Shown: positions 4,994 through 53,279, counted from the stretch's first letter. The stretch is 64,000 bases of DNA from a virus (IMGVR_UViG_2524023245_000003:398-64397), one strand, 5' to 3'. The notes: generated by a model from the letters alone, not told the origin. Program-made: numbers and translations.

Positions 4994-5256
4994 GGCGTCC
5001 CCCCGAGCTGCTGCACCAGCAGACGCAGCCGCGCGATCTCCAGCTCCAGCGTCGCGACCTTCGTCTCCGCCGCCGCCTGATCCCGCTCAGCCTTGTCCCG
5101 CTCAGCCGTCAGCCGGCCGGTGAGACTGTCGTATCCGGTGATCACTCCGCCCTCCCGCTGTGCCCGCCCGGCGAGCCGGGAGCCGTACACCGCCGCCGCC
5201 GCGGCCACCGGCGAGGCCAGCAGAGCACCTATCGCCGTGACCATGGCAGCGTCCAT
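4990..5256 (-). CDS. Small TM plus coiled-coil lysis-cassette protein
   Basis: Hydrophobic N-terminus, heptad-rich C-terminus, downstream of holin. Confidence 0.8.
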
Positions 5257-5287
5257 ACGCCCTCCCGGCCGCGCTCATCGGACAGGA

Positions 5288-5539
5288 TCAGACCCGGGGC
5301 GCCGCAGAGGCGCTCTGCCGGTCGCCGATCAGCCGGGACGCCAGGCCCTTCACCAGCGATCCGGCGGCAGCTACCCCCGCCGCGCCGACGGTCTCCCAGA
5401 AGCTCGCCGAGAACATGTCGGCGGGGCCGGCGGCTACGGCCACACCGGCAGCGGCCACCACGAAGGTGGAGGCGACGCGCTCGGCCAGGTCCACGGCGTA
5501 AGTACGGGCGCTGCGGAGGATAGTGGTAGGCGTGCTCAT
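5288..5539 (-). CDS. Holin (r1t-like)
   Basis: DLAERVASTF motif, two TM helices, directly after endolysin. Confidence 0.85.
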   Translation of the reverse strand: MSTPTTILRSARTYAVDLAERVASTFVVAAAGVAVAAGPADMFSASFWETVGAAGVAAAGSLVKGLASRLIGDRQSASAAPRV

Positions 5540-5541
5540 GG

Positions 5542-6507
5542 TCAGTTCTCCTTCGTCAGGGTGTCGCCGAGGCGGTCGAGGGCAGCTCGGGCGCCCGCTT
5601 CCGCAGCGGCGGTGATCTCGGCGGCGGTGAGCCCGCCGCCCGCGGCGAGCCGCTCCAGGACCGCGTCCCGGGCGGCACCCCGCGCGGCCAGCTCGGCCAC
5701 GGCGGCCTGGAGGCCCTTGACCCGGCTGCGGGTCTCCCGCGCCACCTCACCGACGTGCCGCAGCACGCTCTCCGGCGCCCACTCGGGGTTGGTGTCCGTG
5801 GCCCACGGCACGGTGAAGAACCCGTCCCTGCGCCACACCCGCTCCGCGATCAGGTCCGCATCTGCCCTGCTGATGGCCATGTCCTCGTCCTCCTGGTCTG
5901 TGTCTCCGCCCCAGCCGGGCGCGTGCTTGAGCCGCGCGGCCACATCCCGGCGGAAGGTGGCCATACTGAAGGTGGGGTCGATCTTGCGGCGGGTGCCTTC
6001 CTTGTGGCCGATCACGCTGTCCGCCGACCACTTGTGCGCCCGGCAGATCGCCGCAGCCCAGCGCACCGCCTGGTCGTACTGCACCGCCGGGTACGGGTCC
6101 TTCCCGTCACCGCGGTTCTCGATCTCGATGCCGTAGTAGTGCCGGTTACCGTCGACCGGCTCGGCCGCGTCGGGCCGCGGATGGGTGGACGACTCGGCGA
6201 CCACGGCGTCGTGCGCGTTCCGCGCGAACGTGCCCGCGTGGTTCGCCCGGCCCGCGCTGAGCATGGTGGCGGTGCCGTCCTTCGCCAGGTGGGTGTGGCA
6301 CAACGGACCCGGCAGCGAGCTGGTGCCCGACCAGCAGAGCGCCAGCGAATCCCGCCCGGCCGTGTGGTGGATGACCAGCCCGTTCACCCCGCCCCACGCA
6401 CCCTTGTGGTTCCGGTCGTGACTGCGCCAGCCCGAGCGCTCCTTCACGCGCACGCCCTCAGTCTTGAGCGCCGCCAGCAGCGCGGACGCGGACAACGGTG
6501 TAGCCAT
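5542..6507 (-). CDS. Endolysin, N-acetylmuramoyl-L-alanine amidase
   Basis: IHHTA, GRANHAG, YGIEIEN, VIGHKE...KIDP amidase_2 motifs. Confidence 0.95.
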   Translation of the reverse strand: MATPLSASALLAALKTEGVRVKERSGWRSHDRNHKGAWGGVNGLVIHHTAGRDSLALCWSGTSSLPGPLCHTHLAKDGTATMLSAGRANHAGTFARNAHDAVVAESSTHPRPDAAEPVDGNRHYYGIEIENRGDGKDPYPAVQYDQAVRWAAAICRAHKWSADSVIGHKEGTRRKIDPTFSMATFRRDVAARLKHAPGWGGDTDQEDEDMAISRADADLIAERVWRRDGFFTVPWATDTNPEWAPESVLRHVGEVARETRSRVKGLQAAVAELAARGAARDAVLERLAAGGGLTAAEITAAAEAGARAALDRLGDTLTKEN

Positions 6508-6516
6508 AGCGACTCC

Positions 6517-6852
6517 TCATGTGGCGGTCTTGGGTGGCGCCCCGGGTGGTGGCGGGGGTGCGGGCGTGCTGCCCTTGATCCACTGGACGACGGTGCCCAC
6601 CGTGGCCGTATCCAGCGCCGCCAGGGCGGTCACCGCGGCGGTATCCCGGGGCGCCAGGCGCACATCGGCGGCCTGGAGCGCGTCCAGGAGCATCCCCTCG
6701 TGGGTGTCCTCCCGCACGCTGTCGCGGCGGCGTTCGCGGCGGGCAGCCGCGCGGCCCCTCGTGGGTGCCGGGCCGCGGTTGAGGTCATGGAGGGTGCCCT
6801 GGTCGGCCGCCGGGGCTGCCCGTGGGCGGATCGGTGCAGGCTGGGCGGGCAT
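6517..6852 (-). CDS. Hypothetical protein
   Basis: GGAG RBS before ATG 6852; fills the gap between tail and lysis genes. Confidence 0.6.
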   Translation of the reverse strand: MPAQPAPIRPRAAPAADQGTLHDLNRGPAPTRGRAAARRERRRDSVREDTHEGMLLDALQAADVRLAPRDTAAVTALAALDTATVGTVVQWIKGSTPAPPPPPGAPPKTAT

Positions 6853-46353: not shown

Positions 46354-46532
46354 CGCTTGCCCTCCGCCCAGCAGGCGGGACAGATGTCCCTGCCGCCGGG
46401 CCGCAGCCGCCAGCCGTCGGAGCGTCGCAGCCTGCGGACATCGCCGACGGTGTACGCGAAGGCGTGATGCGTCTCGGCGTCACATTCCGGCCGACCGTCG
46501 CAGCGGATGACGGGGTACGAGGCGGCGGTCAC
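46350..46532 (-). CDS. Small Zn-finger protein
   Basis: IRCDG...GW...DICPAC. Confidence 0.7.
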   Translation of the reverse strand: MTAASYPVIRCDGRPECDAETHHAFAYTVGDVRRLRRSDGWRLRPGGRDICPACWAEGKR

Positions 46533-47491
46533 GCGGGCACCTCGCCGAGGTCGAGCACGCCCTGGGCGAAGCGGTCGCGAGCGAGGTCGTGGTACTCGGC
46601 GTTCAGGTCGATGCCCACGTACTTGCGGCCGAGCTGCCGGGCCGCGGCGCCCGTGGTGCCGCTCCCGCTGAACGGGTCGGCCACGACGCCGCTCGGTCGG
46701 CAGCCGGCCTTGATGCAGCGCAGCGGAATGTCGATCGGGAACACCGCGAAGTGCGCAGCGGGATACGGGCGGGTTGCGATCTCCCAGACGTCGCCGGGGT
46801 TGCGGCCGCGGGCGTCGGGCCCGGCGTAGGCACCAGTCGCGGTGCGCCGGTGATTCAGGTCGCGAGCCCGGAACGCTCGGCTGCCTGCGCGCCGCTCGGG
46901 AGCGGTGTGCGGCTCACGGATCGCGTCGAGGTCGAACCGGTACCGCGGGCTGCGGCTGAACATGAACAGGTGCTCATGCCGACCGCTGAGCCGGTCGGTC
47001 ACGGACTCCGGCATCGCGTTGGGCTTGGCCCAGATGATCTCGTTGCGGAGTATCCACCCGTCGTCCTGGAGTGCGAACGCCACCCGCCACGGGATGCCGA
47101 GCAGCTGCTTCGCTGCCAGCCCGCCGCCGGACTTGCCGCCGCTTCCGGCGGGGGTGGTGCCGTGGTTGCTGCGCCCTGCCAGCCCATCGGTCTTGGACTC
47201 GCTCCCCTTCGGCGGACAGGCGTAGCTGTCGCCCAAGTTGAGCCACAGCGTGCCGTCGTCGGCTAGCACCCGGCGCGCCTCGGCGAAGACGGTGCGCAGC
47301 TGGTCCACGTAGGCCGCGGGGGTGTCCTCCAGCCCGTACTGGCCGGGCGTGCCGTAGTCGCGGAGTCCGTAGTACGGCGGGCTGGTCACGATGCAGTCCA
47401 CGCTGGCGTCGGGGAGCGTGCGCAGTACCTCCAGCGCGTCGCCGAGGAGCAGGGTCACCTGCTCGTCGCGGTAGTACGGCACGGTCGTCAC
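46529..47491 (-). CDS. DNA methyltransferase, N4-C/N6-A beta class
   Basis: VTSPPY catalytic motif precedes HFAVFP and DPFSGSGTT SAM motif. Confidence 0.95.
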   Translation of the reverse strand: MTTVPYYRDEQVTLLLGDALEVLRTLPDASVDCIVTSPPYYGLRDYGTPGQYGLEDTPAAYVDQLRTVFAEARRVLADDGTLWLNLGDSYACPPKGSESKTDGLAGRSNHGTTPAGSGGKSGGGLAAKQLLGIPWRVAFALQDDGWILRNEIIWAKPNAMPESVTDRLSGRHEHLFMFSRSPRYRFDLDAIREPHTAPERRAGSRAFRARDLNHRRTATGAYAGPDARGRNPGDVWEIATRPYPAAHFAVFPIDIPLRCIKAGCRPSGVVADPFSGSGTTGAAARQLGRKYVGIDLNAEYHDLARDRFAQGVLDLGEVPA

Positions 47492-47547
47492 TTGTCCTCC
47501 AGGGGGAGCAGGGTGAGTTGGTCGGGGTGCAGGTCGTGCGGGGGCGG

Positions 47548-47811
47548 TCACGCGGCGGCGTCCAGGTCCAGGACGAGCTGGTCGGCGGCGAGGTCGCGCC
47601 AGCGCGACGGCTCGTGCACGAGCGTCCACCGGTAGCCCCGCCCGCCGTCCGCGTCCGCGAGGTCCAGCCGCCACACGGTGAGGCCGCGGGCCATCGGCTG
47701 GAAGATGTACACGTGGGCGCCGATGGTGCGCTGCCACTGGCCGGGCGCGTCGTGGTAGCCGAAGCCGCGGCCGTAGAGCCGCATCCCGCCAAGCCGGGCG
47801 GGGGCGGTCAC
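47548..47811 (-). CDS. Hypothetical protein ending QLVLDL
   Basis: GTGA coupling between the two MTase genes. Confidence 0.65.
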   Translation of the reverse strand: MTAPARLGGMRLYGRGFGYHDAPGQWQRTIGAHVYIFQPMARGLTVWRLDLADADGGRGYRWTLVHEPSRWRDLAADQLVLDLDAAA

Positions 47812-48671
47812 GCGGCACCCCCTGCGCGGCCGGCGACGGGGACCACGGTCAGCGGGGCCTCGCTGAAGAGGTCCAGCGCCCCCTGGCCGGCCAGGGGGCG
47901 GTTGGACCACACGACTTCGGTGCGGCTCTTCGCGCCGATGGCGTTGCCGGTCATGGTCTGCTGCTCGTATCGGTGCCAGCCGTCGTACAGCTCGGCGTAC
48001 AGCGGGCTGGCGTAGCCGGAGAGCACCACCGCGGCGGCGCAGTCCCGGAGCGCGGCCGCGAGTTCACGGTGATCCGTCTCGCCGCGCATCTCGCAGCGGT
48101 AGTTCGAGTGCGGCCGCGTACTGCCGAGGTAGGGCGGGTCCACGTACAGCAGCACCTCGGGCTGCGCCCCGTACTTCCCAATGAGCGTCAGCGCGGGCAG
48201 GCACTCCAGAGACACGCCCTGGAGGCGCTCCGCAGCGGCGGCGAGCCGGTCGACGTAGGCGGCCATGTAGCCAGGCATCGAGGCTCCTGATCCGGCCGGG
48301 TCGATGTAGTGCCGCCAGCCCGTGGTGCGAAGCGTTCCGGAGCGGCCTTGCGCCAGGCGGCACCAGATCCGCCGGGCCAGCTCCAGCTCGTCAGTGGTCG
48401 GCTCGAAGGTGGCGGCCAGCTCGGTGCGTGAGTGCGGGGTCAGCGCGCAGGCGCGGACCAGGTCGTCCGGCCGGTCGCGCAGCACCCGCCACATGGTCAT
48501 CAGCTCGCCGTCGAGGTCGTTGACGGTCTCCATCGCGCTGGGGCGCTTGGCCAGCAGCACGGACAGGCCACCGCAGTACGGCTCCACGTAGTGCCCGTGC
48601 GCCGGGAGCAGCCCGGCAATCCAGGACGCGATGCGGGCCTTGCTGCCGAAGTACGGCACCGGCGGCTTCAC
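47808..48671 (-). CDS. Dam-like (D12 class) DNA adenine methyltransferase
   Basis: PYFGSK, YVEPYCG, VNDLD, YVDPPY. Confidence 0.95.
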   Translation of the reverse strand: MKPPVPYFGSKARIASWIAGLLPAHGHYVEPYCGGLSVLLAKRPSAMETVNDLDGELMTMWRVLRDRPDDLVRACALTPHSRTELAATFEPTTDELELARRIWCRLAQGRSGTLRTTGWRHYIDPAGSGASMPGYMAAYVDRLAAAAERLQGVSLECLPALTLIGKYGAQPEVLLYVDPPYLGSTRPHSNYRCEMRGETDHRELAAALRDCAAAVVLSGYASPLYAELYDGWHRYEQQTMTGNAIGAKSRTEVVWSNRPLAGQGALDLFSEAPLTVVPVAGRAGGAA

Positions 48672-49084
48672 GCGGCACCGCCTGCGCGGGCCGGGCCGGA
48701 ACCGGATACCGCGGCGGCGGGCCAGAGTGCGGCGGTCGGGTCTTCCCCGCGTACGACGGCGAGCAGTAGGACCCCGTGGCAGTGGTCCGGCTCGCCGGGC
48801 TCCGGTACGGCGCACCAGCAGGCAATGTCCCAGCCCGCCAGCTCGGCGCGGATCTCCTCGTCCGACGGGTACGCGACGAGGAGTTCCGGCTGCGGGAAGC
48901 TGCGGCGCGCGACGAGGAGGTTCGCCAGCAGCAGGGTGGCGCCGTACCGCTCGGCCGGGCTGGAGTCGTACGCGCGGTACGGGGTGCCGTACTTCGAGCC
49001 GCGGCCGACGTACTTCGCACCGGCGGGCATGCCGCCGCCCTTGGTGCGGGTGCGCTGGACTCGGCGTGGGGTGCGGGTGGTCAT
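48668..49084 (-). CDS. DUF4326-like protein
   Basis: YVGRGSKYGTPY...LAGWDIACWC...CHGVLL. Confidence 0.85.
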   Translation of the reverse strand: MTTRTPRRVQRTRTKGGGMPAGAKYVGRGSKYGTPYRAYDSSPAERYGATLLLANLLVARRSFPQPELLVAYPSDEEIRAELAGWDIACWCAVPEPGEPDHCHGVLLLAVVRGEDPTAALWPAAAVSGSGPARAGGAA

Positions 49085-49344: not shown

Positions 49345-49631
49345 GACGAGGCCCTCGCGTGCGCGGCGCATTCCCAGCGGGAGCGGAGGTTGTCGCGGTA
49401 GTAGTCCATGGTGATCAGCTCGGTGGTGATCCCTTGGCGGGCGGCTTGCTCGCGGTCGCCTCGGGTGGGGTTGAAGTGCCGGTGCGCCTGGTCGGCGGTC
49501 GCGAGAGTGCGGCTGTTGACGACGGCGAGGACGACGGAGACGACGCAGCCGCAGGGCCGTCGTTCGAGCCAGCCGCAGTCGTCGAGCGGGACGGACTCGC
49601 CGTTGACGGTGACGGTCAGGGTGTTGGTCAT
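49341..49631 (-). CDS. Hypothetical protein
   Basis: ATGA coupling; PCGC. Confidence 0.65.
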   Translation of the reverse strand: MTNTLTVTVNGESVPLDDCGWLERRPCGCVVSVVLAVVNSRTLATADQAHRHFNPTRGDREQAARQGITTELITMDYYRDNLRSRWECAAHARASS

Positions 49632-50512
49632 GAGGCGCTCCGGATCTTGGCGGTGGTGGTGCCTGCGCAGCGGGCGCAGCGGTGGTCTGTGCGGCGTGGG
49701 AGGTGGCGGGTGCCGCAGTCGGGGCAGCGGGCGAAGTCGGTGACGGTGCCGAGCGGTTGAGCGGCGGGTGGCGGCGCGGTGTCGTGGTCGTCTTGTCCTG
49801 GGACTGGATGATCGTTTTGGGGTCCGGCACCCGGATCTACCTGAGGTGGGGAAGAGACCTCGGCCGCGTCATGGGGTAGTTCCTTGGCTATCCCTGGGTT
49901 GTTCGGGTCGCGGGGGCCCGAACCAATCGGGTCGCGGGGGCCCGAACTCGGTGGGGTCGCGGTCACCCGAACTTCGTCGTCCGTACCGCCGGTAAGTTCG
50001 GGTCGCGGGGGCCCGAACTGGTTCGGGTCGCGGTCACCCGAACTTTCTTCGTTGTCCTGCCACGGCGCGGGGCTCTTTCCTGACTTCCTCGGGGCTGCCG
50101 CCAACACCGCCTCACCCGCTGCCCAGTCCGGCCACGGCGTGAGTACGAGGACGTACAGCGTCGCCTTCCCGCGCTTCTGCTCGCCCTTCACCGCGACGAC
50201 ACCAGCGGCGATCGCAGCCCGCAGATAGCGGCGGGTGTCCTTCTCGCTCGCGCCGGCCGCCCGTGCGATGTCCTGGATGCGGATCGGTTTCCGGTCGCCG
50301 GAGAACCGCAGCTCCCCCGAGGCGTTGGCCATGGCGCGGAGGGCGTAGAGCAGGGTCAGGATGCTGCGGCGCAGCCTGGTCGGCATGGCGGGCGCCCACT
50401 TCCACGCGAGTGCGTTCCCGAACGCGTTGGGGACGCTCCCGGGAGCCCTGCCGTCCTGACCCTGCTCTGTGCTCAACTCGACCTCGGATCGTGCGTGCGT
50501 ACGGGGGGGCAA
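49628..50512 (-). CDS. Replication initiator (wHTH, lambda-O-like organisation)
   Basis: RIQDIARAAGASEKDTRRYL HTH, internal iterons, C-terminal Zn ribbon; start uncertain. Confidence 0.75.
   Translation of the reverse strand: MPPRTHARSEVELSTEQGQDGRAPGSVPNAFGNALAWKWAPAMPTRLRRSILTLLYALRAMANASGELRFSGDRKPIRIQDIARAAGASEKDTRRYLRAAIAAGVVAVKGEQKRGKATLYVLVLTPWPDWAAGEAVLAAAPRKSGKSPAPWQDNEESSGDRDPNQFGPPRPELTGGTDDEVRVTATPPSSGPRDPIGSGPRDPNNPGIAKELPHDAAEVSSPPQVDPGAGPQNDHPVPGQDDHDTAPPPAAQPLGTVTDFARCPDCGTRHLPRRTDHRCARCAGTTTAKIRSAS
49901..50043. repeat. Five 23-bp palindromic iterons GTTCGGG-N9-CCCGAAC, candidate origin of replication
   Basis: Copies at 49901, 49925, 49950, 49996 and 50021. Confidence 0.85.
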
Positions 50513-50528: not shown

Positions 50529-52028
50529 CTACTCGCGCTGCCTATCGAGCAGCGGGTACTCGTCCGGGAACTGCATGCCGGGGCGGCCGTTGACGAGGTT
50601 CGGCTTCAGGTGCACGCGGCAGCCGGCCTCGCGGGCCTGGATGACGATGCGGGCGACCCAGTCGAAGGGCGGAGCGAACGCGGGCACGACACCGCCGGGC
50701 TGCCGCGTCTCGGTCTGCGCGCCGATGACGACCCAGTCGAAGACGGACAGGTCGGTGAACTCCAGCGGCTCCTTGAGGGGCTCCAGCGACAGCCACTTGA
50801 CCGCAGGACCGTCGATCTCCCGGAAGGCGTTCTCGGCGATGCGTACGCGCTTCTGCTCGTCCACGCTGGTGCCCACCCAGGCGCCCGGCGGCATGTCCAA
50901 CCCGACGTAGCGGGCCGGGAACTTGGTGAGGGTGATGTACTGCCAGGCCGGGTTGGCGCACATGGAGGCGTGGACGGCCTGGATCCACTCGTCGGGGACC
51001 CAGCGTCCGTAGAGGTCGGCCATGGAGCAGACGAAGACGCGGCGGTAGGCGCACACCTTGCATTCGCCGTCGGCGCATCCGGGGTGCTGGTCGTCGCGGT
51101 ACGCGGCCGGGATGACGGTGTTCGCCGGGGCGTCGAGGCGCTCGTGGTGGTAGAGCGGGGTGAAGCCGGTCGGGTAGGCGCCGGCGTACCGCTCGTCGGT
51201 GGCGATGGCGCGGGCGTAGCAGTAGTTGCAGCCGTGGAGGCAGCCGGTGACGGGGTTCCAGGACCAGGCGGCCCAGGAGATGCCGGTGCCGCGGGACTCG
51301 TTGAATGTGGCCTTGGCGGCGGGCTGCGGGTAGTTCACCGGCTCGCCGGTGTGGGTGCGCAAGGTGAGCGTGACCGGGCTGGGCTTCGGCGCGGGCTCGG
51401 GCTTGGGCAGGGCGGCTATGCGCTGCTTCCGCTGCCGGTCCGCCGCGTCCAACGCCAGAGCACCCGCACGAACCTGGGCGGCGAGATCCGGCGAGTCCCG
51501 CACGACGGCCTTCGCCTGCTGCACCGCCCGACCCGACGCGCCGACAGCGCGCGCGGCCATAGTGGTCGACTCCCGCTCGCGGCGGTCCGGTCCAGCTTCC
51601 CGCAGATCTGCGGGAACCGTCGAGCTTGTGACCTGCGCATTCACCTTCTCTGCGGTCTGACGGCCAGCCGCTCGCTGCGCTTCCTTCGCTGCCGCCGAGT
51701 AGTGCCGCTCGTACTCCAGTGCCATCAGCGCTTTCTGTCCGGCGTTGAGCTGGCGGCGGGCGAGGTTCTTCGACACGATCAGGTCGAGGACCATCGCCTC
51801 GGTGTAGCGCTCCGGCAGGGCTTCGAACACCGGGTCCGCTCCGGCTGCTTCGCACGCCCGGTACCGGTTGCGGCCGTCGATCAGGACCGTCCGGTCGTGG
51901 TTGAGGGCGATCGGCTCGCGCAGGCCGTTGCGCTTGACGTCGCGGACGAGTTCTTCGAATTCCTCGCCGTCGATCAGCGGGAAGGCGTCAGCGAACGGGT
52001 GCACCTCGTAGGGCCCGAGCTTCGCCAT
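50529..52028 (-). CDS. ParB/Srx-like domain fused to Gp37/Gp68 (DUF5131) radical-SAM-like domain
   Basis: GLREPI...IDGRNRYRAC; ISW...SWNPVTGCLHGCNYCYA, VFVCSMADL, LTK.P, WLSLEPL, DWVVIG. Confidence 0.9.
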   Translation of the reverse strand: MAKLGPYEVHPFADAFPLIDGEEFEELVRDVKRNGLREPIALNHDRTVLIDGRNRYRACEAAGADPVFEALPERYTEAMVLDLIVSKNLARRQLNAGQKALMALEYERHYSAAAKEAQRAAGRQTAEKVNAQVTSSTVPADLREAGPDRRERESTTMAARAVGASGRAVQQAKAVVRDSPDLAAQVRAGALALDAADRQRKQRIAALPKPEPAPKPSPVTLTLRTHTGEPVNYPQPAAKATFNESRGTGISWAAWSWNPVTGCLHGCNYCYARAIATDERYAGAYPTGFTPLYHHERLDAPANTVIPAAYRDDQHPGCADGECKVCAYRRVFVCSMADLYGRWVPDEWIQAVHASMCANPAWQYITLTKFPARYVGLDMPPGAWVGTSVDEQKRVRIAENAFREIDGPAVKWLSLEPLKEPLEFTDLSVFDWVVIGAQTETRQPGGVVPAFAPPFDWVARIVIQAREAGCRVHLKPNLVNGRPGMQFPDEYPLLDRQRE

Positions 52029-52029
52029 G

Positions 52030-52293
52030 TCAGTTCTCCTTGCCGTGGATCTTGCAGTGGCAGCGGTGGCACACCGCCGCAAGGTTTTCCGGGACGTCGA
52101 ACGCGCCCCAGGGCGGATAGCGCCAGTGGTGCGGTTCTGTCGGCGGGCGCACTCCGCAGTGCTCGCAACGGCCACCGGCCCGCTCGAACACCGCGCGCCG
52201 CACCGTGAGGAACCGCGGGTGCCGCAGGTACTCGGCGTAGGTGCGGTACGGCTGGTCGACGCCGGGGCGGGGTGGCGCGTAGTGGCGGGTCAC
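52030..52293 (-). CDS. Small HNH endonuclease
   Basis: YAEYL...RCEHC...HH..Y...ENL..VCHRCH. Confidence 0.85.
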   Translation of the reverse strand: MTRHYAPPRPGVDQPYRTYAEYLRHPRFLTVRRAVFERAGGRCEHCGVRPPTEPHHWRYPPWGAFDVPENLAAVCHRCHCKIHGKEN

Positions 52294-53279
52294 GCCGCGG
52301 CGTCCAGGTCGAACAGCGTCAGGTCCCCACCGGAGTCGGGCAGGGCATCGGCGGTCGGCGCGACGGGGCGCGGGATCATCGCGAGCCGCTGGTCGCTGCT
52401 CGCCGCCATCCATTCGCGTTCCCGGCCACTGATCTGCTTCAGCTCCGACTTCTGCAAGAAGAGCCGCAGGAGAAGGTCGTCGAACTCGCCGCAGTCCTGC
52501 CGCCACCAAGCAATGCTCACGGACCGGTTGCAGCCCTTCGCGCTTTTCCGGGCCGCGTGGTCGGTCTTGTGCCGCCACTTCTCGGCTGTCGCCACGAGAT
52601 ACGCCCACTGCGCTTCGTCCTGGTCGAGCGCGGCGAGTGACAAGTCGCGGTACTCGGGCAGTGCGTACTGCTGTTCCCGCACAGTGGAGAACCACTTGAT
52701 GCGGACGTCGATGCTGTTCCGCTTCAGGCCGGCCGGGTTGCACCCCATGGTGGACAGGCAGCGGAACAGCCTTGCCCTGGAAGCAATCTCCGCCGCGAAG
52801 GTGGAACGCATCGCCCACTCAGTGATCGCGTTCGGGTCGTTGACGACGAATACGGCGGTGTCTCGGCCGATGTCGGTGACGTCGGCGTCCGCGCCGCTGC
52901 CGAACTGGGCGACGACGGTGGACTTGCTGACCGGGTGGGCCCACGTCTCGGAACCAACTGCGAGGTAGCCGAGACCCGGCAGGTTCGCGTCGAGATTCCC
53001 GAGGAGCCGGTCGTAGTTGGCCACGGCGATTTCGTGGAGGCGAACGCTCACCGGTATGCGGCAGGTCGCCGCGTAGTAGGAGAGGATGCCCGGCGAGCAG
53101 GCGCGGTACCAGGTCTCGCCCTCAACGGGAGCGGCGTCACCCGCGGTGAGGTCGTACCAGATCCCGCGGCGAACGCCGAGGCGCGGGATGACCCCGGCCT
53201 CCTGGCCGACGATGCTCCGCAGGTAGTCGTGTTTGATGGGTGTGCGCCAGCTGCGGCCGACGTCCATGTGCTTGGTCAC
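52290..53279 (-). CDS. Divergent TcmP-like (three-Cys-motif partner) methyltransferase-fold protein
   Basis: TPIKHDYL...YDLTAGD...SPGI...HEI...FVVNDP resembles TcmP T.xKH...DxxAG...GSP...E...DP; adjacent to DUF5131. Confidence 0.65.
   Translation of the reverse strand: MTKHMDVGRSWRTPIKHDYLRSIVGQEAGVIPRLGVRRGIWYDLTAGDAAPVEGETWYRACSPGILSYYAATCRIPVSVRLHEIAVANYDRLLGNLDANLPGLGYLAVGSETWAHPVSKSTVVAQFGSGADADVTDIGRDTAVFVVNDPNAITEWAMRSTFAAEIASRARLFRCLSTMGCNPAGLKRNSIDVRIKWFSTVREQQYALPEYRDLSLAALDQDEAQWAYLVATAEKWRHKTDHAARKSAKGCNRSVSIAWWRQDCGEFDDLLLRLFLQKSELKQISGREREWMAASSDQRLAMIPRPVAPTADALPDSGGDLTLFDLDAAA

What the first reader, a model, noticed from the sequence alone, without database searches (positions are those of the whole stretch)
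50529..53279. TcmP-like MTase-fold + HNH + ParB-radical-SAM trio: candidate novel DNA modification/restriction module
Seen: three tightly coupled genes next to the replication initiator. They encode a divergent SAM-binding TcmP-like protein, an 87-aa HNH nuclease, and a ParB/Srx domain fused to a Gp37/Gp68 (DUF5131) domain with a canonical CxxxCxxC motif (CLHGCNYC). Known: DUF5131 and TcmP genes co-occur and, to my knowledge, their chemistry is unresolved; ParB-like domains are often fused to phage DNA-modifying enzymes. Inference: an Fe-S/SAM-dependent base hypermodification with a nuclease that discriminates unmodified DNA.
Basis: partly seen in the sequence, partly recalled or inferred. Interest (0 to 1): 0.8.

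Follow-up and report, generated by a model that had tools for sequence, protein, structure and literature searches.

The report
DNA-tethered radical SAM enzyme pair
A prophage of a high-GC actinomycete carries a conserved, uncharacterised gene module, namely a methyltransferase-fold protein, a small HNH nuclease and a DNA-binding ParB domain fused to a radical-SAM enzyme that resembles a DNA-repair lyase, and it most likely modifies DNA chemically in a way not yet described.

Summary
Three translationally coupled minus-strand genes occupy 50529-53279. They encode a 329-aa protein ("X329"), an 87-aa HNH nuclease, and a 499-aa ParB(N+HTH)-DUF5131 fusion with a canonical CX3CX2C motif.

- **X329:** it matches no Pfam, NCBIfam, PHROG or PADLOC model. 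Its AlphaFold model (pLDDT 85.6) is a Rossmann methyltransferase fold closest to RlmJ (Z 14.3). Remote links tie it to TcmP.
- **DUF5131 domain:** it folds as a radical-SAM barrel closest to spore photoproduct lyase (Z 13.6), a DNA-acting enzyme.
- **Conservation:** X329 directly precedes ParB-DUF5131 in 26 of 26 distinct related loci, and two relatives fuse them into one protein. The HNH lies between them in 17 of 26, so it is an accessory of a phage-borne clade, not part of the core.
- **Context:** the loci sit in replication modules of prophages, plasmids and integrated elements.

Best reading (0.45): a DNA-tethered, two-SAM base-modification machine. Rivals are a defence system, DNA repair and RNA modification. 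The chemistry is untested. I found no paper on TcmP or DUF5131 function. It is a new variant of a known but uncharacterised gene pair.

The parts
52290..53279 (-). X329: 329-aa RlmJ-like Rossmann (SAM methyltransferase-fold) protein, a divergent TcmP-like partner
   Evidence: GTG start and homologue coverage. No hit in Pfam, NCBIfam, PHROG or PADLOC. AF2 pLDDT 85.6, pTM 0.84. Best PDB match RlmJ: Foldseek 1.8e-7; VIA Z 14.3, 213 aa, rmsd 3.3. 6 of 52 distant relatives hit TIGR04474.
53133..53153 (-). X329 motif I, D43-L-T-A46-G47-D-A, the SAM-binding loop after strand 1
   Evidence: D43, A46 and G47 are invariant or nearly so across 52 distant relatives. The same D-x-x-A-G-x-G signature aligns with a phage TcmP-like protein and with E. 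coli RlmJ (local alignment only).
52830..52841 (-). X329 motif-IV position, N147-D148-P149-N150, after strand 4 (model strand 141-147)
   Evidence: D148 and N150 are invariant and P149 is conserved in at least 90% of 52 relatives. Strand position. RlmJ has DPPY here (PMC3814359 abstract). The phage TcmP-like protein has DPFG.
52311..52325 (-). X329 C-terminal tail motif D319-L-T-L-F323 in a disordered acidic tail
   Evidence: pLDDT is below 50 for residues 312-329. The motif [DE][LMW]x[LF][FW] occurs in the last 35 residues of 63 of 137 family members of 300 aa or more, against 1.4 in shuffled tails and 3 of 1086 body windows. Many of the 63 are close relatives. Any partner is untested.
52030..52293 (-). 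87-aa HNH endonuclease, an accessory component
   Evidence: PHROG HNH 2.1e-8. Zinc and catalytic residues conserved in 18 of 18. Present between the two core genes in 17 of 26 distinct related loci.
50529..52028 (-). 499-aa ParB(N+HTH)-DUF5131 radical-SAM fusion protein
   Evidence: 1768 proteins at E <= 0.001. The 120 listed cover 97% or more of the query in 119 cases (one covers 45%). Sources name them 'DUF5131 family protein' or 'protein gp37/ParB-like chromosome segregation protein Spo0J'.
51414..52028 (-). ParB-like N-terminal domain (DGRNRYRA arginine patch, KNLARR box) plus central HTH, about residues 1-205
   Evidence: Profile match to Caulobacter ParB 6t1f over residues 22-183, E 3.5e-6, and to other ParB/Noc chains. 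G52, R53, N54, R55, R57, A58, N88, R91 and R92 are invariant in 13 of 13.
50529..51356 (-). DUF5131 radical-SAM domain, residues 225-499
   Evidence: AF2 pLDDT 87.5, pTM 0.86. Best PDB match spore photoproduct lyase: Foldseek 3e-4; VIA Z 13.6, 219 aa, rmsd 3.4. The next best are LIAS, viperin-like and RlmN at Z 11.3-11.5.
51219..51242 (-). CX3CX2C cluster motif, C263-L-H-G-C267-N-Y-C270
   Evidence: Invariant in 13 of 13 orthologues. The 14 canonical DUF5131 proteins aligned have CX6CX2C at the same place; this subfamily has a 3-residue deletion.
51051..51089 (-). Cys-rich insertion Q314-HPGCADGECKVC-326 (C-x4-C-x2-C) inside the radical-SAM domain
   Evidence: Present in the window and 6 other sequences (P0326, P0340, P0363, P0368, P0370, P0388). 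L013 has a shorter insertion, CVTCDGPDC. It is absent from the other 14 ParB-fused sequences and from all 14 canonical ones aligned. Function unknown.

Best explanation
The core is a two-protein enzyme that uses SAM in two ways and acts on the DNA of the mobile element that carries it.

Proposed mechanism:
- The ParB-like N-domain and HTH tether the fusion protein to DNA.
- The SPL-like radical-SAM domain holds a [4Fe-4S] cluster on C263/C267/C270. It cleaves SAM to a 5'-deoxyadenosyl radical and abstracts a hydrogen from a flipped-out base or from a substituent on it.
- X329 has an RlmJ-like methyltransferase fold with an intact motif I, a motif II acid and a 'DPN' motif IV. It binds a second SAM and supplies or prepares the group that is modified. 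It evolves faster than its partner and probably carries the target specificity.
- The product is a covalent base modification made during or just after replication. It protects the element's DNA from host nucleases.
- In the phage-borne clade, an 87-aa HNH nuclease is an added accessory.

Shown here: gene structure, folds, motifs, gene linkage, fusions and genomic context. Inferred: DNA as the substrate, complex formation, both catalytic activities, and the protective role.
For: - **Linkage.** X329 directly precedes ParB-DUF5131 in 13 of 13 genome loci, in 14 of 14 IMG/VR loci and on a linear Streptomyces plasmid. One contig occurs in both sets, which leaves 26 of 26 distinct loci.
- **Fusions.** P0240 is X329 fused to DUF5131. 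P0226 is X329 fused to ParB and DUF5131.
- **X329 fold.** It is a methyltransferase fold closest to the m6A methyltransferase RlmJ. Pocket residues are invariant across 52 relatives of 27-46% identity.
- **DUF5131 domain fold.** It is a radical-SAM barrel closest to SPL by about 2 Z units over the next matches. RadicalSAM.org places DUF5131 (Megacluster-5-2) beside SPL (5-3) (PMC9477430, passage).
- **DNA binding.** The ParB N-domain and HTH are homologous to chromosome-partitioning ParB.
- **Context.** The module sits in replication regions. In L012 a primase-helicase, X329, ParB-DUF5131 and a family A DNA polymerase are consecutive same-strand ORFs whose coordinates overlap by four bases. 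Elsewhere DnaB, DciA, ParA or Ku and ligase lie nearby. In the window the module sits between WhiB/RusA and an initiator-like gene, DUF4326 and two DNA methyltransferases.
- **Precedent.** Phage M6 gp53 is an SPL-like radical-SAM enzyme that remodels a thymidine hypermodification on DNA (PMC8989533, passages).
- **Divergence rates.** X329 is 38-75% identical to the window protein in loci where ParB-DUF5131 is 63-80% identical. That pattern fits a specificity subunit.
Against:
- X329's motif IV is NDPN, not the (D/N)PP(Y/F) of amino-methyltransferases. hhalign against E. coli RlmJ is not significant (probability 0.2-0.3%). It may therefore not be a methyltransferase at all.
- Where canonical DUF5131 proteins have 'GGESG', this subfamily has 'GAQTE'.
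- The DUF5131 part matches component B of two PADLOC candidate defence systems. A canonical pair in Gordonia phage ThankyouJordi lies between the integrase and the immunity repressor, a typical place for a lysogeny-expressed defence gene.
- RlmJ and RlmN, both among the structural matches, act on RNA.
- No cultured phage among 50,697 records carries X329 or the fusion, so no DNA sample is at hand.
Confidence: 0.45

Rival explanations
1. The module is an anti-phage or exclusion system. The ParB-tethered radical-SAM enzyme and its partner attack or mark incoming foreign DNA or nucleotides, and the HNH acts as effector. The prophage or plasmid carries it to exclude competitors.
For: - The DUF5131 domain hits PADLOC candidates PDC-M41B (4.1e-29) and PDC-M30B (1.7e-27).
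- A canonical TcmP-like/DUF5131 pair in Gordonia phage ThankyouJordi sits between the integrase and the repressor.
- TcmP is listed next to the Hna defence gene in S. meliloti (PMC12445080, table passage) and among prophage cargo (PMC12429752).
- Viperin-like enzymes are among the fold matches (Z 11.5).
Against: - X329 itself hits no PADLOC model.
- This subfamily sits inside same-strand early and replication operons, not at lysogeny or moron loci.
- The HNH, the putative effector, is absent from 9 of 26 loci.
- PDC entries are candidates. I found no test of them: PDC-M30 occurs in two survey papers (search listing only, not read) and PDC-M41 in none.
Confidence: 0.2
2. The module is a restriction-modification-like trio. 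The pair modifies the phage's own DNA and the HNH cuts unmodified (host or competitor) DNA.
For: - The HNH is translationally coupled to both neighbours.
- Its catalytic residues are conserved in 18 of 18 sequences at 61-83% identity.
- It is present in 12 of 14 viral-contig loci.
Against: - It is absent from 7 of 13 genome loci, from 2 of 14 viral loci and from the plasmid copy, all of which keep the pair.
- At 87 aa it has no recognition domain.
- Small HNH genes are common free-standing phage genes. In L013 a second nuclease-like gene (MUG113/T5orf172) is inserted at the same spot, which suggests a hotspot for mobile nucleases.
Confidence: 0.15
3. The module is a DNA repair or lesion-processing enzyme linked to replication. 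It would be an SPL-like lyase that reverses a base adduct or crosslink, brought to DNA by ParB, with X329 as a non-catalytic or SAM-sensing partner.
For: - SPL is the closest fold.
- The cluster region gives weak hits to the PA0069 and Rv2578c families. By recall, not from a call, these belong to the SplB-like group.
- On the plasmid the pair lies next to Ku and a DNA ligase.
Against: - No SPL-family model is matched. The hits above are 20-23 bits against cut-offs of 360-430.
- An obligate methyltransferase-fold partner with a conserved pocket is not expected for a lyase.
- The module is carried on mobile elements, not in core genomes.
Confidence: 0.1
4. The substrate is RNA, not DNA. The pair modifies a tRNA or rRNA base, as RlmJ and RlmN do, to reprogramme translation during infection.
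For: The best match for X329 is the rRNA m6A methyltransferase RlmJ. RlmN is among the matches for the radical-SAM domain (Z 11.3). By recall, the TYW1/TYW2 pathway is a precedent for a radical-SAM enzyme working with methyltransferase-fold enzymes on tRNA.
Against: The ParB N-domain and HTH fusion and the replication-gene context point to DNA. SPL ranks above RlmN.
Confidence: 0.08

Closest known systems
TcmP (TIGR04474) + DUF5131/'Gp37/Gp68' (PF07505) gene pairs
   Same: A methyltransferase-fold partner is encoded next to a three-Cys DUF5131 protein. In a 301-genome sample of the phylum, TcmP lies within 1 kb of DUF5131 in 27 of 39 TcmP-bearing genomes (24 of 36 without the three flagged unpublished genomes). 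Remote homology of X329 to TcmP.
   Different: - X329 is not detected by TIGR04474. Genome G001, which holds an X329 homologue, gives no TIGR04474 match.
- The DUF5131 part has CX3CX2C instead of CX6CX2C and 'GAQTE' instead of 'GGESG'. Pfam aligns only positions 2-184 of 243.
- A ParB N-domain and HTH are fused to it, and an HNH is often inserted between the two genes.
- The function of the canonical pair is itself unknown.
RlmJ, 23S rRNA m6A2030 methyltransferase (PDB 4blw and others)
   Same: It is the best structural match (Z 14.3, 213 aligned, rmsd 3.3). The two share the D-x-x-A-G-x-G motif I. An acidic residue follows strand 2 and an Asp follows strand 4.
   Different: There is no significant sequence or profile similarity. 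RlmJ has DPPY at motif IV (PMC3814359, abstract) and X329 has NDPN. X329 adds a C-terminal helical region and a disordered tail. RlmJ works alone, on RNA.
Spore photoproduct lyase (PDB 4fhf/4fhg)
   Same: It is the best structural match of the radical-SAM domain (Z 13.6, 219 aligned). Both have CX3CX2C. SPL acts on a flipped-out lesion in DNA. The two families sit in neighbouring RadicalSAM.org clusters.
   Different: Identity is 12-13% and no SPL-family model matches. SPL repairs a lesion and needs no partner. This protein has a ParB fusion and an obligate partner.
Pseudomonas phage M6 gp53, a radical-SAM isomerase of thymidine hypermodification
   Same: It is a phage-encoded, SPL-like radical-SAM enzyme with CX3CX2C that acts on bases in DNA after replication (PMC8989533, passages).
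   Different: It is not a DUF5131 relative (hhalign probability 4%; Pfam gives only a weak Radical_SAM match). It works in a 5-hmdU, kinase and amino-acid pathway whose genes I did not see around this module.
PADLOC candidate systems PDC-M30 and PDC-M41
   Same: Their B components are DUF5131 proteins that match this domain (E 1.7e-27 and 4.1e-29).
   Different: X329 matches no PADLOC model, so the A components are not met. These are candidates, and I found no experimental account. Their definitions may lie in supplements that I could not see.

Membership tests
TcmP (TIGR04474) | Scores over the family model's cut-off (53 bits) | tested here: not met
   X329 gives no NCBIfam hit even at E <= 10. 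G001, which holds an X329 homologue, gives no TIGR04474 match.
TcmP (TIGR04474) | Encoded next to a PF07505 three-Cys protein | tested here: met
   26 of 26 distinct related loci, plus a plasmid.
TcmP (TIGR04474) | Detectable homology to bona fide members | tested here: met
   - 6 of 52 distant X329 relatives hit TIGR04474 (best 3.4e-8).
- hhalign to the Gordonia phage TcmP-like gp42 gives probability 77%, E 2e-5.
- The family HMM hits the neighbours of canonical DUF5131 in 7 of 30 loci (5 of 27 without the flagged genomes).
- An ESM Atlas TcmP cluster scores 0.91.
DUF5131 (PF07505) | Scores over the Pfam gathering threshold | tested here: met
   110 bits against 28.9, but only profile positions 2-184 of 243.
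DUF5131 (PF07505) | Three-Cys motif in WNPxxGC...GCxxCYA | tested here: met
   Present and invariant, but spaced CX3CX2C. The 14 canonical members aligned have CX6CX2C.
Radical SAM superfamily | CX3CX2C and a partial TIM-barrel fold | tested here: met
   Sequence. The model matches SPL, LIAS, viperin, RlmN and others at Z 10-13.6.
Radical SAM superfamily | [4Fe-4S] cluster and reductive SAM cleavage | not testable with these tools
   Needs anaerobic reconstitution, EPR and a 5'-deoxyadenosine assay.
RlmJ family (PF04378) | Family model or profile similarity | tested here: not met
   No Pfam hit. hhalign probability 0.2-0.3%.
RlmJ family (PF04378) | Motif IV DPPY | tested here: not met
   X329 has N147-D-P-N150 at the end of strand 4. 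DPPY is from the PMC3814359 abstract.
RlmJ family (PF04378) | RlmJ-type Rossmann fold | tested here: met
   Z 14.3, about 2 units above the next methyltransferases.
ParB/Spo0J | N-terminal ParB domain plus HTH | tested here: met
   Profile match to solved ParB and Noc chains (E 3.5e-6 to 4.6e-3). Pfam ParB_N falls below its cut-off.
ParB/Spo0J | GERRxRA arginine patch and ENxxR box as in CTP-dependent clamps | tested here: inconclusive
   The aligned motifs read DGRNRYRA and KNLARR. CTP binding is not testable here.
ParB/Spo0J | C-terminal dimerisation domain | tested here: not met
   The C-terminal half is the DUF5131 domain.
HNH endonuclease | Catalytic His, Asn and His with two CxxC zinc pairs | tested here: met
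   Conserved in 18 of 18. PHROG HNH 2.1e-8. Pfam HNH is below its cut-off.
Restriction-modification system | The nuclease is obligatorily linked to the modification genes | tested here: not met
   The HNH is absent from 9 of 26 loci that keep the pair.
Restriction-modification system | The nuclease spares modified DNA | not testable with these tools
   Needs nuclease assays on modified and unmodified DNA.
PADLOC PDC-M30 / PDC-M41 | All components match | tested here: not met
   The B component matches. X329 and the HNH match no component model of these systems.

The most novel reading that the evidence does not exclude
A radical-SAM enzyme carried on a ParB-type DNA clamp, together with a fast-evolving methyltransferase-fold specificity partner, travels along newly replicated mobile-element DNA. 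The partner's C-terminal tail resembles a sliding-clamp-binding peptide. Together they install a base modification of a chemical type not yet seen in DNA, for example a carbon-linked or methyl-derived adduct made by hydrogen abstraction from a base or from a freshly added methyl group. Canonical TcmP/DUF5131 pairs would then form a widespread, overlooked family of DNA-modifying enzymes.
Probability: 0.2. Interest if true: 0.85.

Novelty: new variant of a known kind. Interest (0 to 1): 0.6.

Why it matters
According to PMC8989533 (passage), only two radical-SAM enzymes were known to act on DNA: SPL, and phage M6 gp53 as the first one that installs a modification.

DUF5131 and TcmP are common on mobile elements. 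In the 301-genome sample, 47 genomes had DUF5131 and 39 had TcmP. Neither has an assigned function.

This variant gives the clearest pointers to a substrate:
- It carries a true ParB and HTH DNA-binding module.
- It has a canonical radical-SAM motif.
- It sits in replication operons.
- It has single-chain fusions with its partner.

These features make the open question of what TcmP/DUF5131 pairs do directly testable with two or three genes. The answer could reveal a new DNA modification, with consequences for phage-host conflict and for tools to label or protect DNA.

Tried and rejected
Binding therefore rests on gene linkage and fusions only.
I repeated the scan with A1.
- A profile of X329 against PDB sequences gave only chance hits to hemopexin (E 0.17).
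- hhalign of the X329 family against E. coli RlmJ was not significant. Residue equivalences such as K16/H17 with RlmJ K18/H19 therefore remain a guess.
- The BFVD fold search gave only generic methyltransferases.
- Mycobacterium phage TChen gp65, next to its DUF5131 gene, is an AAA_24 ATPase and not TcmP-like. The two genes upstream of DUF5131 in Enterocloster phage CB473P3 are not TcmP-like either. Not every DUF5131 protein has a TcmP partner.
- M6 gp53 is not a DUF5131 homologue.
- The window HNH and the TChen HNH share only the generic HNH core.
- The four palindromes at 49901-50043 could be ParB sites. The pattern occurs in none of the 51 loci held at that time. Their position inside the initiator-like gene fits origin iterons equally well, so this is undecided.
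- Literature searches found no functional study: DUF5131; TcmP, 'three-Cys-motif partner', PF07505 and 'Gp37 Gp68'; COG4422, IPR011101, TIGR04474 and IPR031009; radical SAM with ParB; PDC-M30 and PDC-M41.
The definitions of the PADLOC PDC candidates and the RadicalSAM.org cluster tables may lie there.


Full report
**What is there**

The window is an IMG/VR provirus record of 64.4 kb with about 70-75% G+C. Three genes lie on the minus strand between 50529 and 53279, joined by a GTGA overlap and then a one-base gap:
- X329, 53279..52290, 329 aa.
- An HNH gene, 52293..52030, 87 aa.
- A 499-aa gene, 52028..50529.

X329's own start also overlaps the stop of a small upstream ORF. The whole region is one same-strand early operon. 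It holds a WhiB-like gene, an HTH-HNH gene, RusA, an initiator-like gene, DUF4326, a D12-class (Dam-like) methyltransferase and an N6_N4 methyltransferase. Tight coupling is therefore not special in itself. The argument rests on conservation elsewhere.

**The 499-aa protein**

Pfam finds DUF5131 at residues 297-488 (E 1.7e-31) and a sub-threshold ParB_N match. Several results confirm the ParB part:
- PHROG ParB families match at 2.7e-8.
- TIGR00180 matches at 7.4e-6.
- A 13-sequence profile matches solved ParB, Spo0J and Noc chains. Caulobacter ParB 6t1f scores E 3.5e-6 over residues 22-183.

The match covers the N-terminal domain and the central helix-turn-helix. The arginine patch reads DGRNRYRA and is invariant in 13 of 13 orthologues.

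C263-x3-C267-x2-C270 is also invariant. In an alignment with 14 canonical DUF5131 proteins from other actinomycete genomes, the canonical proteins have CX6CX2C and a 'GGESG' motif. This subfamily has a three-residue deletion that yields the classical radical-SAM spacing, and it has 'GAQTE' in place of 'GGESG'.

An AlphaFold model of residues 225-499 has pLDDT 87.5 and pTM 0.86. Its best PDB match is spore photoproduct lyase, at Foldseek 3e-4 and VIA Z 13.6 with 219 residues at rmsd 3.4. Lipoyl synthase, viperin-like enzymes and RlmN follow at Z 11.3-11.5. RadicalSAM.org lists DUF5131 as Megacluster-5-2 beside SPL at 5-3 (PMC9477430, one passage read).

The fusion is widespread. 1768 proteins score E <= 0.001, and 119 of the 120 listed cover 97% or more of the query. 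Sources name them 'DUF5131 family protein' or 'protein gp37/ParB-like...'.

**X329**

No Pfam, NCBIfam, PHROG or PADLOC model matches X329, even at permissive thresholds. It nevertheless belongs to a sizeable family:
- 251 proteins score E <= 0.001 in the 90%-identity clustered database. Every source name among the 120 listed is 'hypothetical protein'.
- 256 representatives match at 50% identity clustering.

The model has pLDDT 85.6 and pTM 0.84. It is a class I Rossmann methyltransferase fold. RlmJ is the best match, at Foldseek 1.8e-7 and VIA Z 14.3 with 213 residues at rmsd 3.3, about 2 units above MnmM and other methyltransferases.

Across 52 relatives of 27-46% identity, the invariant or nearly invariant residues sit at the expected cofactor and active-site positions:
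- D43, A46 and G47 at motif I.
- S62.
- E83 at the end of strand 2.
- D148, P149 and N150 after strand 4.
- G179, N181, G184, R193, D212, D221, W225 and Y227.

Motif IV reads NDPN, not the DPPY of RlmJ (PMC3814359, abstract and passages).

Four results link X329 to TcmP:
- 6 of 52 relatives hit TIGR04474, best E 3.4e-8.
- The family profile aligns with the 'methyltransferase' gp42 that lies next to the DUF5131 gene gp41 of Gordonia phage ThankyouJordi (probability 77%, E 2e-5).
- The family HMM hits the neighbours of canonical DUF5131 genes in 7 of 30 loci, or 5 of 27 without the flagged genomes.
- An ESM Atlas 'TcmP family' cluster scores 0.91.

Direct profile comparison with E. coli RlmJ is not significant. 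The relation to RlmJ is therefore structural only.

**Conservation**

X329 is immediately followed by ParB-DUF5131 in 13 of 13 loci from species-representative genomes and in 14 of 14 IMG/VR loci. L002 and L057 are the same contig, which leaves 26 of 26 distinct loci.

The HNH lies between the two genes in 6 of 13 genome loci and 12 of 14 viral loci, or 17 of 26 distinct loci. Its catalytic and zinc residues are conserved in all 18 sequences, counting the window and both copies of the shared contig. The loci without it are the more distant ones, with X329 identity of 30-47%.

On a linear Streptomyces caniferus plasmid the pair stands alone, next to Ku and a DNA ligase.

Two relatives are fusions. 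P0240 joins X329 to DUF5131, and P0226 joins X329, ParB and DUF5131.

X329 diverges faster than its partner. Identities to the window proteins are 52% against 80% in L004 and 45% against 74% in L010.

For the canonical families, a sample of 301 genomes of the phylum gave DUF5131 in 47 genomes and TcmP in 39. By my reading of the two tables, they lie within 1 kb of each other in 27 of the 39. Three of those genomes (G004, G021, G271) are flagged unpublished. Without them the count is 24 of 36.

**Context**

The module sits among replication genes:
- In L012 the consecutive same-strand ORFs, whose coordinates overlap by four bases, encode a primase-helicase (D5_N/DUF5906), X329, ParB-DUF5131 and a family A DNA polymerase.
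- Other loci carry DnaB, DciA, ParA or a CoiA-like nuclease nearby.

No record among 50,697 cultured-phage genomes holds X329 or covers 80% or more of the fusion. 128 phage records carry a DUF5131 domain alone.

**How it most likely works**

The shown facts are:
- a DNA-binding ParB and HTH module fused covalently to a radical-SAM barrel whose nearest solved relative works on flipped-out bases in DNA;
- an obligate, sometimes fused, methyltransferase-fold partner with a conserved pocket;
- a home among replication genes of mobile elements.

From these I infer a two-SAM, DNA-directed base-modifying enzyme. One SAM is cleaved to a 5'-deoxyadenosyl radical. The other is used by X329 as an alkyl donor or bound as a cofactor.

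Phage M6 gp53 is a published precedent for an SPL-like radical-SAM enzyme that remodels a base in phage DNA (PMC8989533, passages). It is not homologous at the family level. By recall, wybutosine synthesis shows a radical-SAM enzyme abstracting hydrogen from a methyl group that a methyltransferase has just installed. A sequence of that kind is a concrete possibility here.

I put this reading at 0.45. The rivals are:
- a defence or exclusion system (0.2), because of the PADLOC PDC-M30B and M41B matches and the lysogeny-locus position of the Gordonia phage pair;
- DNA repair (0.1);
- RNA modification (0.08).

**Comparison with what is known, and novelty**

The TcmP/DUF5131 pairing is already encoded in database models, and the ParB fusion is visible in automatic annotations. 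What is new here:
- The partner family lies outside every curated model.
- This branch has the canonical CX3CX2C spacing.
- The ParB part includes an HTH and aligns with partition ParBs.
- The core is a pair, with an HNH accessory in a phage-borne clade.
- Single-chain fusions exist.
- The module has a consistent replication context.

I found no functional study of TcmP or DUF5131 in the library searched. The only mentions were tables of gene names and a cluster list. Subscription journals and supplements were not searchable.

**Limits**

The adjacency counts for canonical pairs are my reading of the coordinates. The residue equivalences with RlmJ are positional inferences from the model, not an alignment.

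Noticed in passing
window 49901-50043: Four copies of a 23-nt palindrome lie inside the initiator-like gene (49628-50512). The start-to-start spacing is 24, 71 and 25 nt. There are 4 matches against 0.15 expected, and none elsewhere in the window. This looks like origin iterons inside an O-like initiator gene. The copies could also be binding sites for the adjacent ParB-HTH protein. The pattern is absent from the other loci held.
   Followed up: partly
window 52311-52325 and family tails: The disordered acidic C-terminal tail of X329 carries a conserved motif, D/E-L/W-x-L-F. It occurs in 63 of 137 long family members, against 1.4 in shuffled tails. By recall it resembles a beta-clamp-binding peptide. 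The two fused relatives and the roughly 294-aa short forms lack it.
   Followed up: partly
protein P0369 (homologue of window 50529-52028): One ParB-DUF5131 homologue is 826 aa long and carries a LAGLIDADG_3 domain (PF14528) in the precomputed Pfam list. This looks like an intein or homing endonuclease inserted in the radical-SAM protein.
   Followed up: no
L002 / L057, about 5172-6601: In the Actinomadura contig the ParB-DUF5131 gene is split between two reading frames, with the ParB part at 5172-6335 and the DUF5131 part at 5666-6601. This is a frameshift, a pseudogene or a sequencing error.
   Followed up: no
L013 1394-2089: An extra gene with MUG113/T5orf172 nuclease-like domains sits between the HNH and ParB-DUF5131 in this Streptosporangium locus. 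The junction may be a landing site for mobile nucleases.
   Followed up: no
window 51051-51089: A Cys-rich insertion (C-x4-C-x2-C, preceded by a His) lies inside the radical-SAM domain. It is found in the window and 6 other ParB-fused sequences, with a shorter variant in L013. The other 14 ParB-fused sequences and all 14 canonical ones lack it. It could be an auxiliary metal site.
   Followed up: no
window 46529-49084: Just downstream in the same operon are an N6_N4 DNA methylase (E 6.3e-53), a D12-class adenine methyltransferase (3.5e-19) and a DUF4326 protein (4.6e-9). The element thus carries at least two conventional DNA methyltransferases besides the module.
   Followed up: no
L016 (Gordonia phage ThankyouJordi) 3534-5401: The canonical DUF5131 gene gp41 and the TcmP-like 'methyltransferase' gp42 are convergent and lie between the integrase and the immunity repressor. 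gp42 ends in a GMT-like wHTH domain. This context differs from that of the ParB-fused subfamily.
   Followed up: partly
L015 (Mycobacterium phage TChen) 2671-4822: Here the DUF5131 gene gp66 is flanked by an AAA_24 ATPase (gp65, not TcmP-like) and an HNH endonuclease (gp67). This is another partner set for DUF5131.
   Followed up: partly
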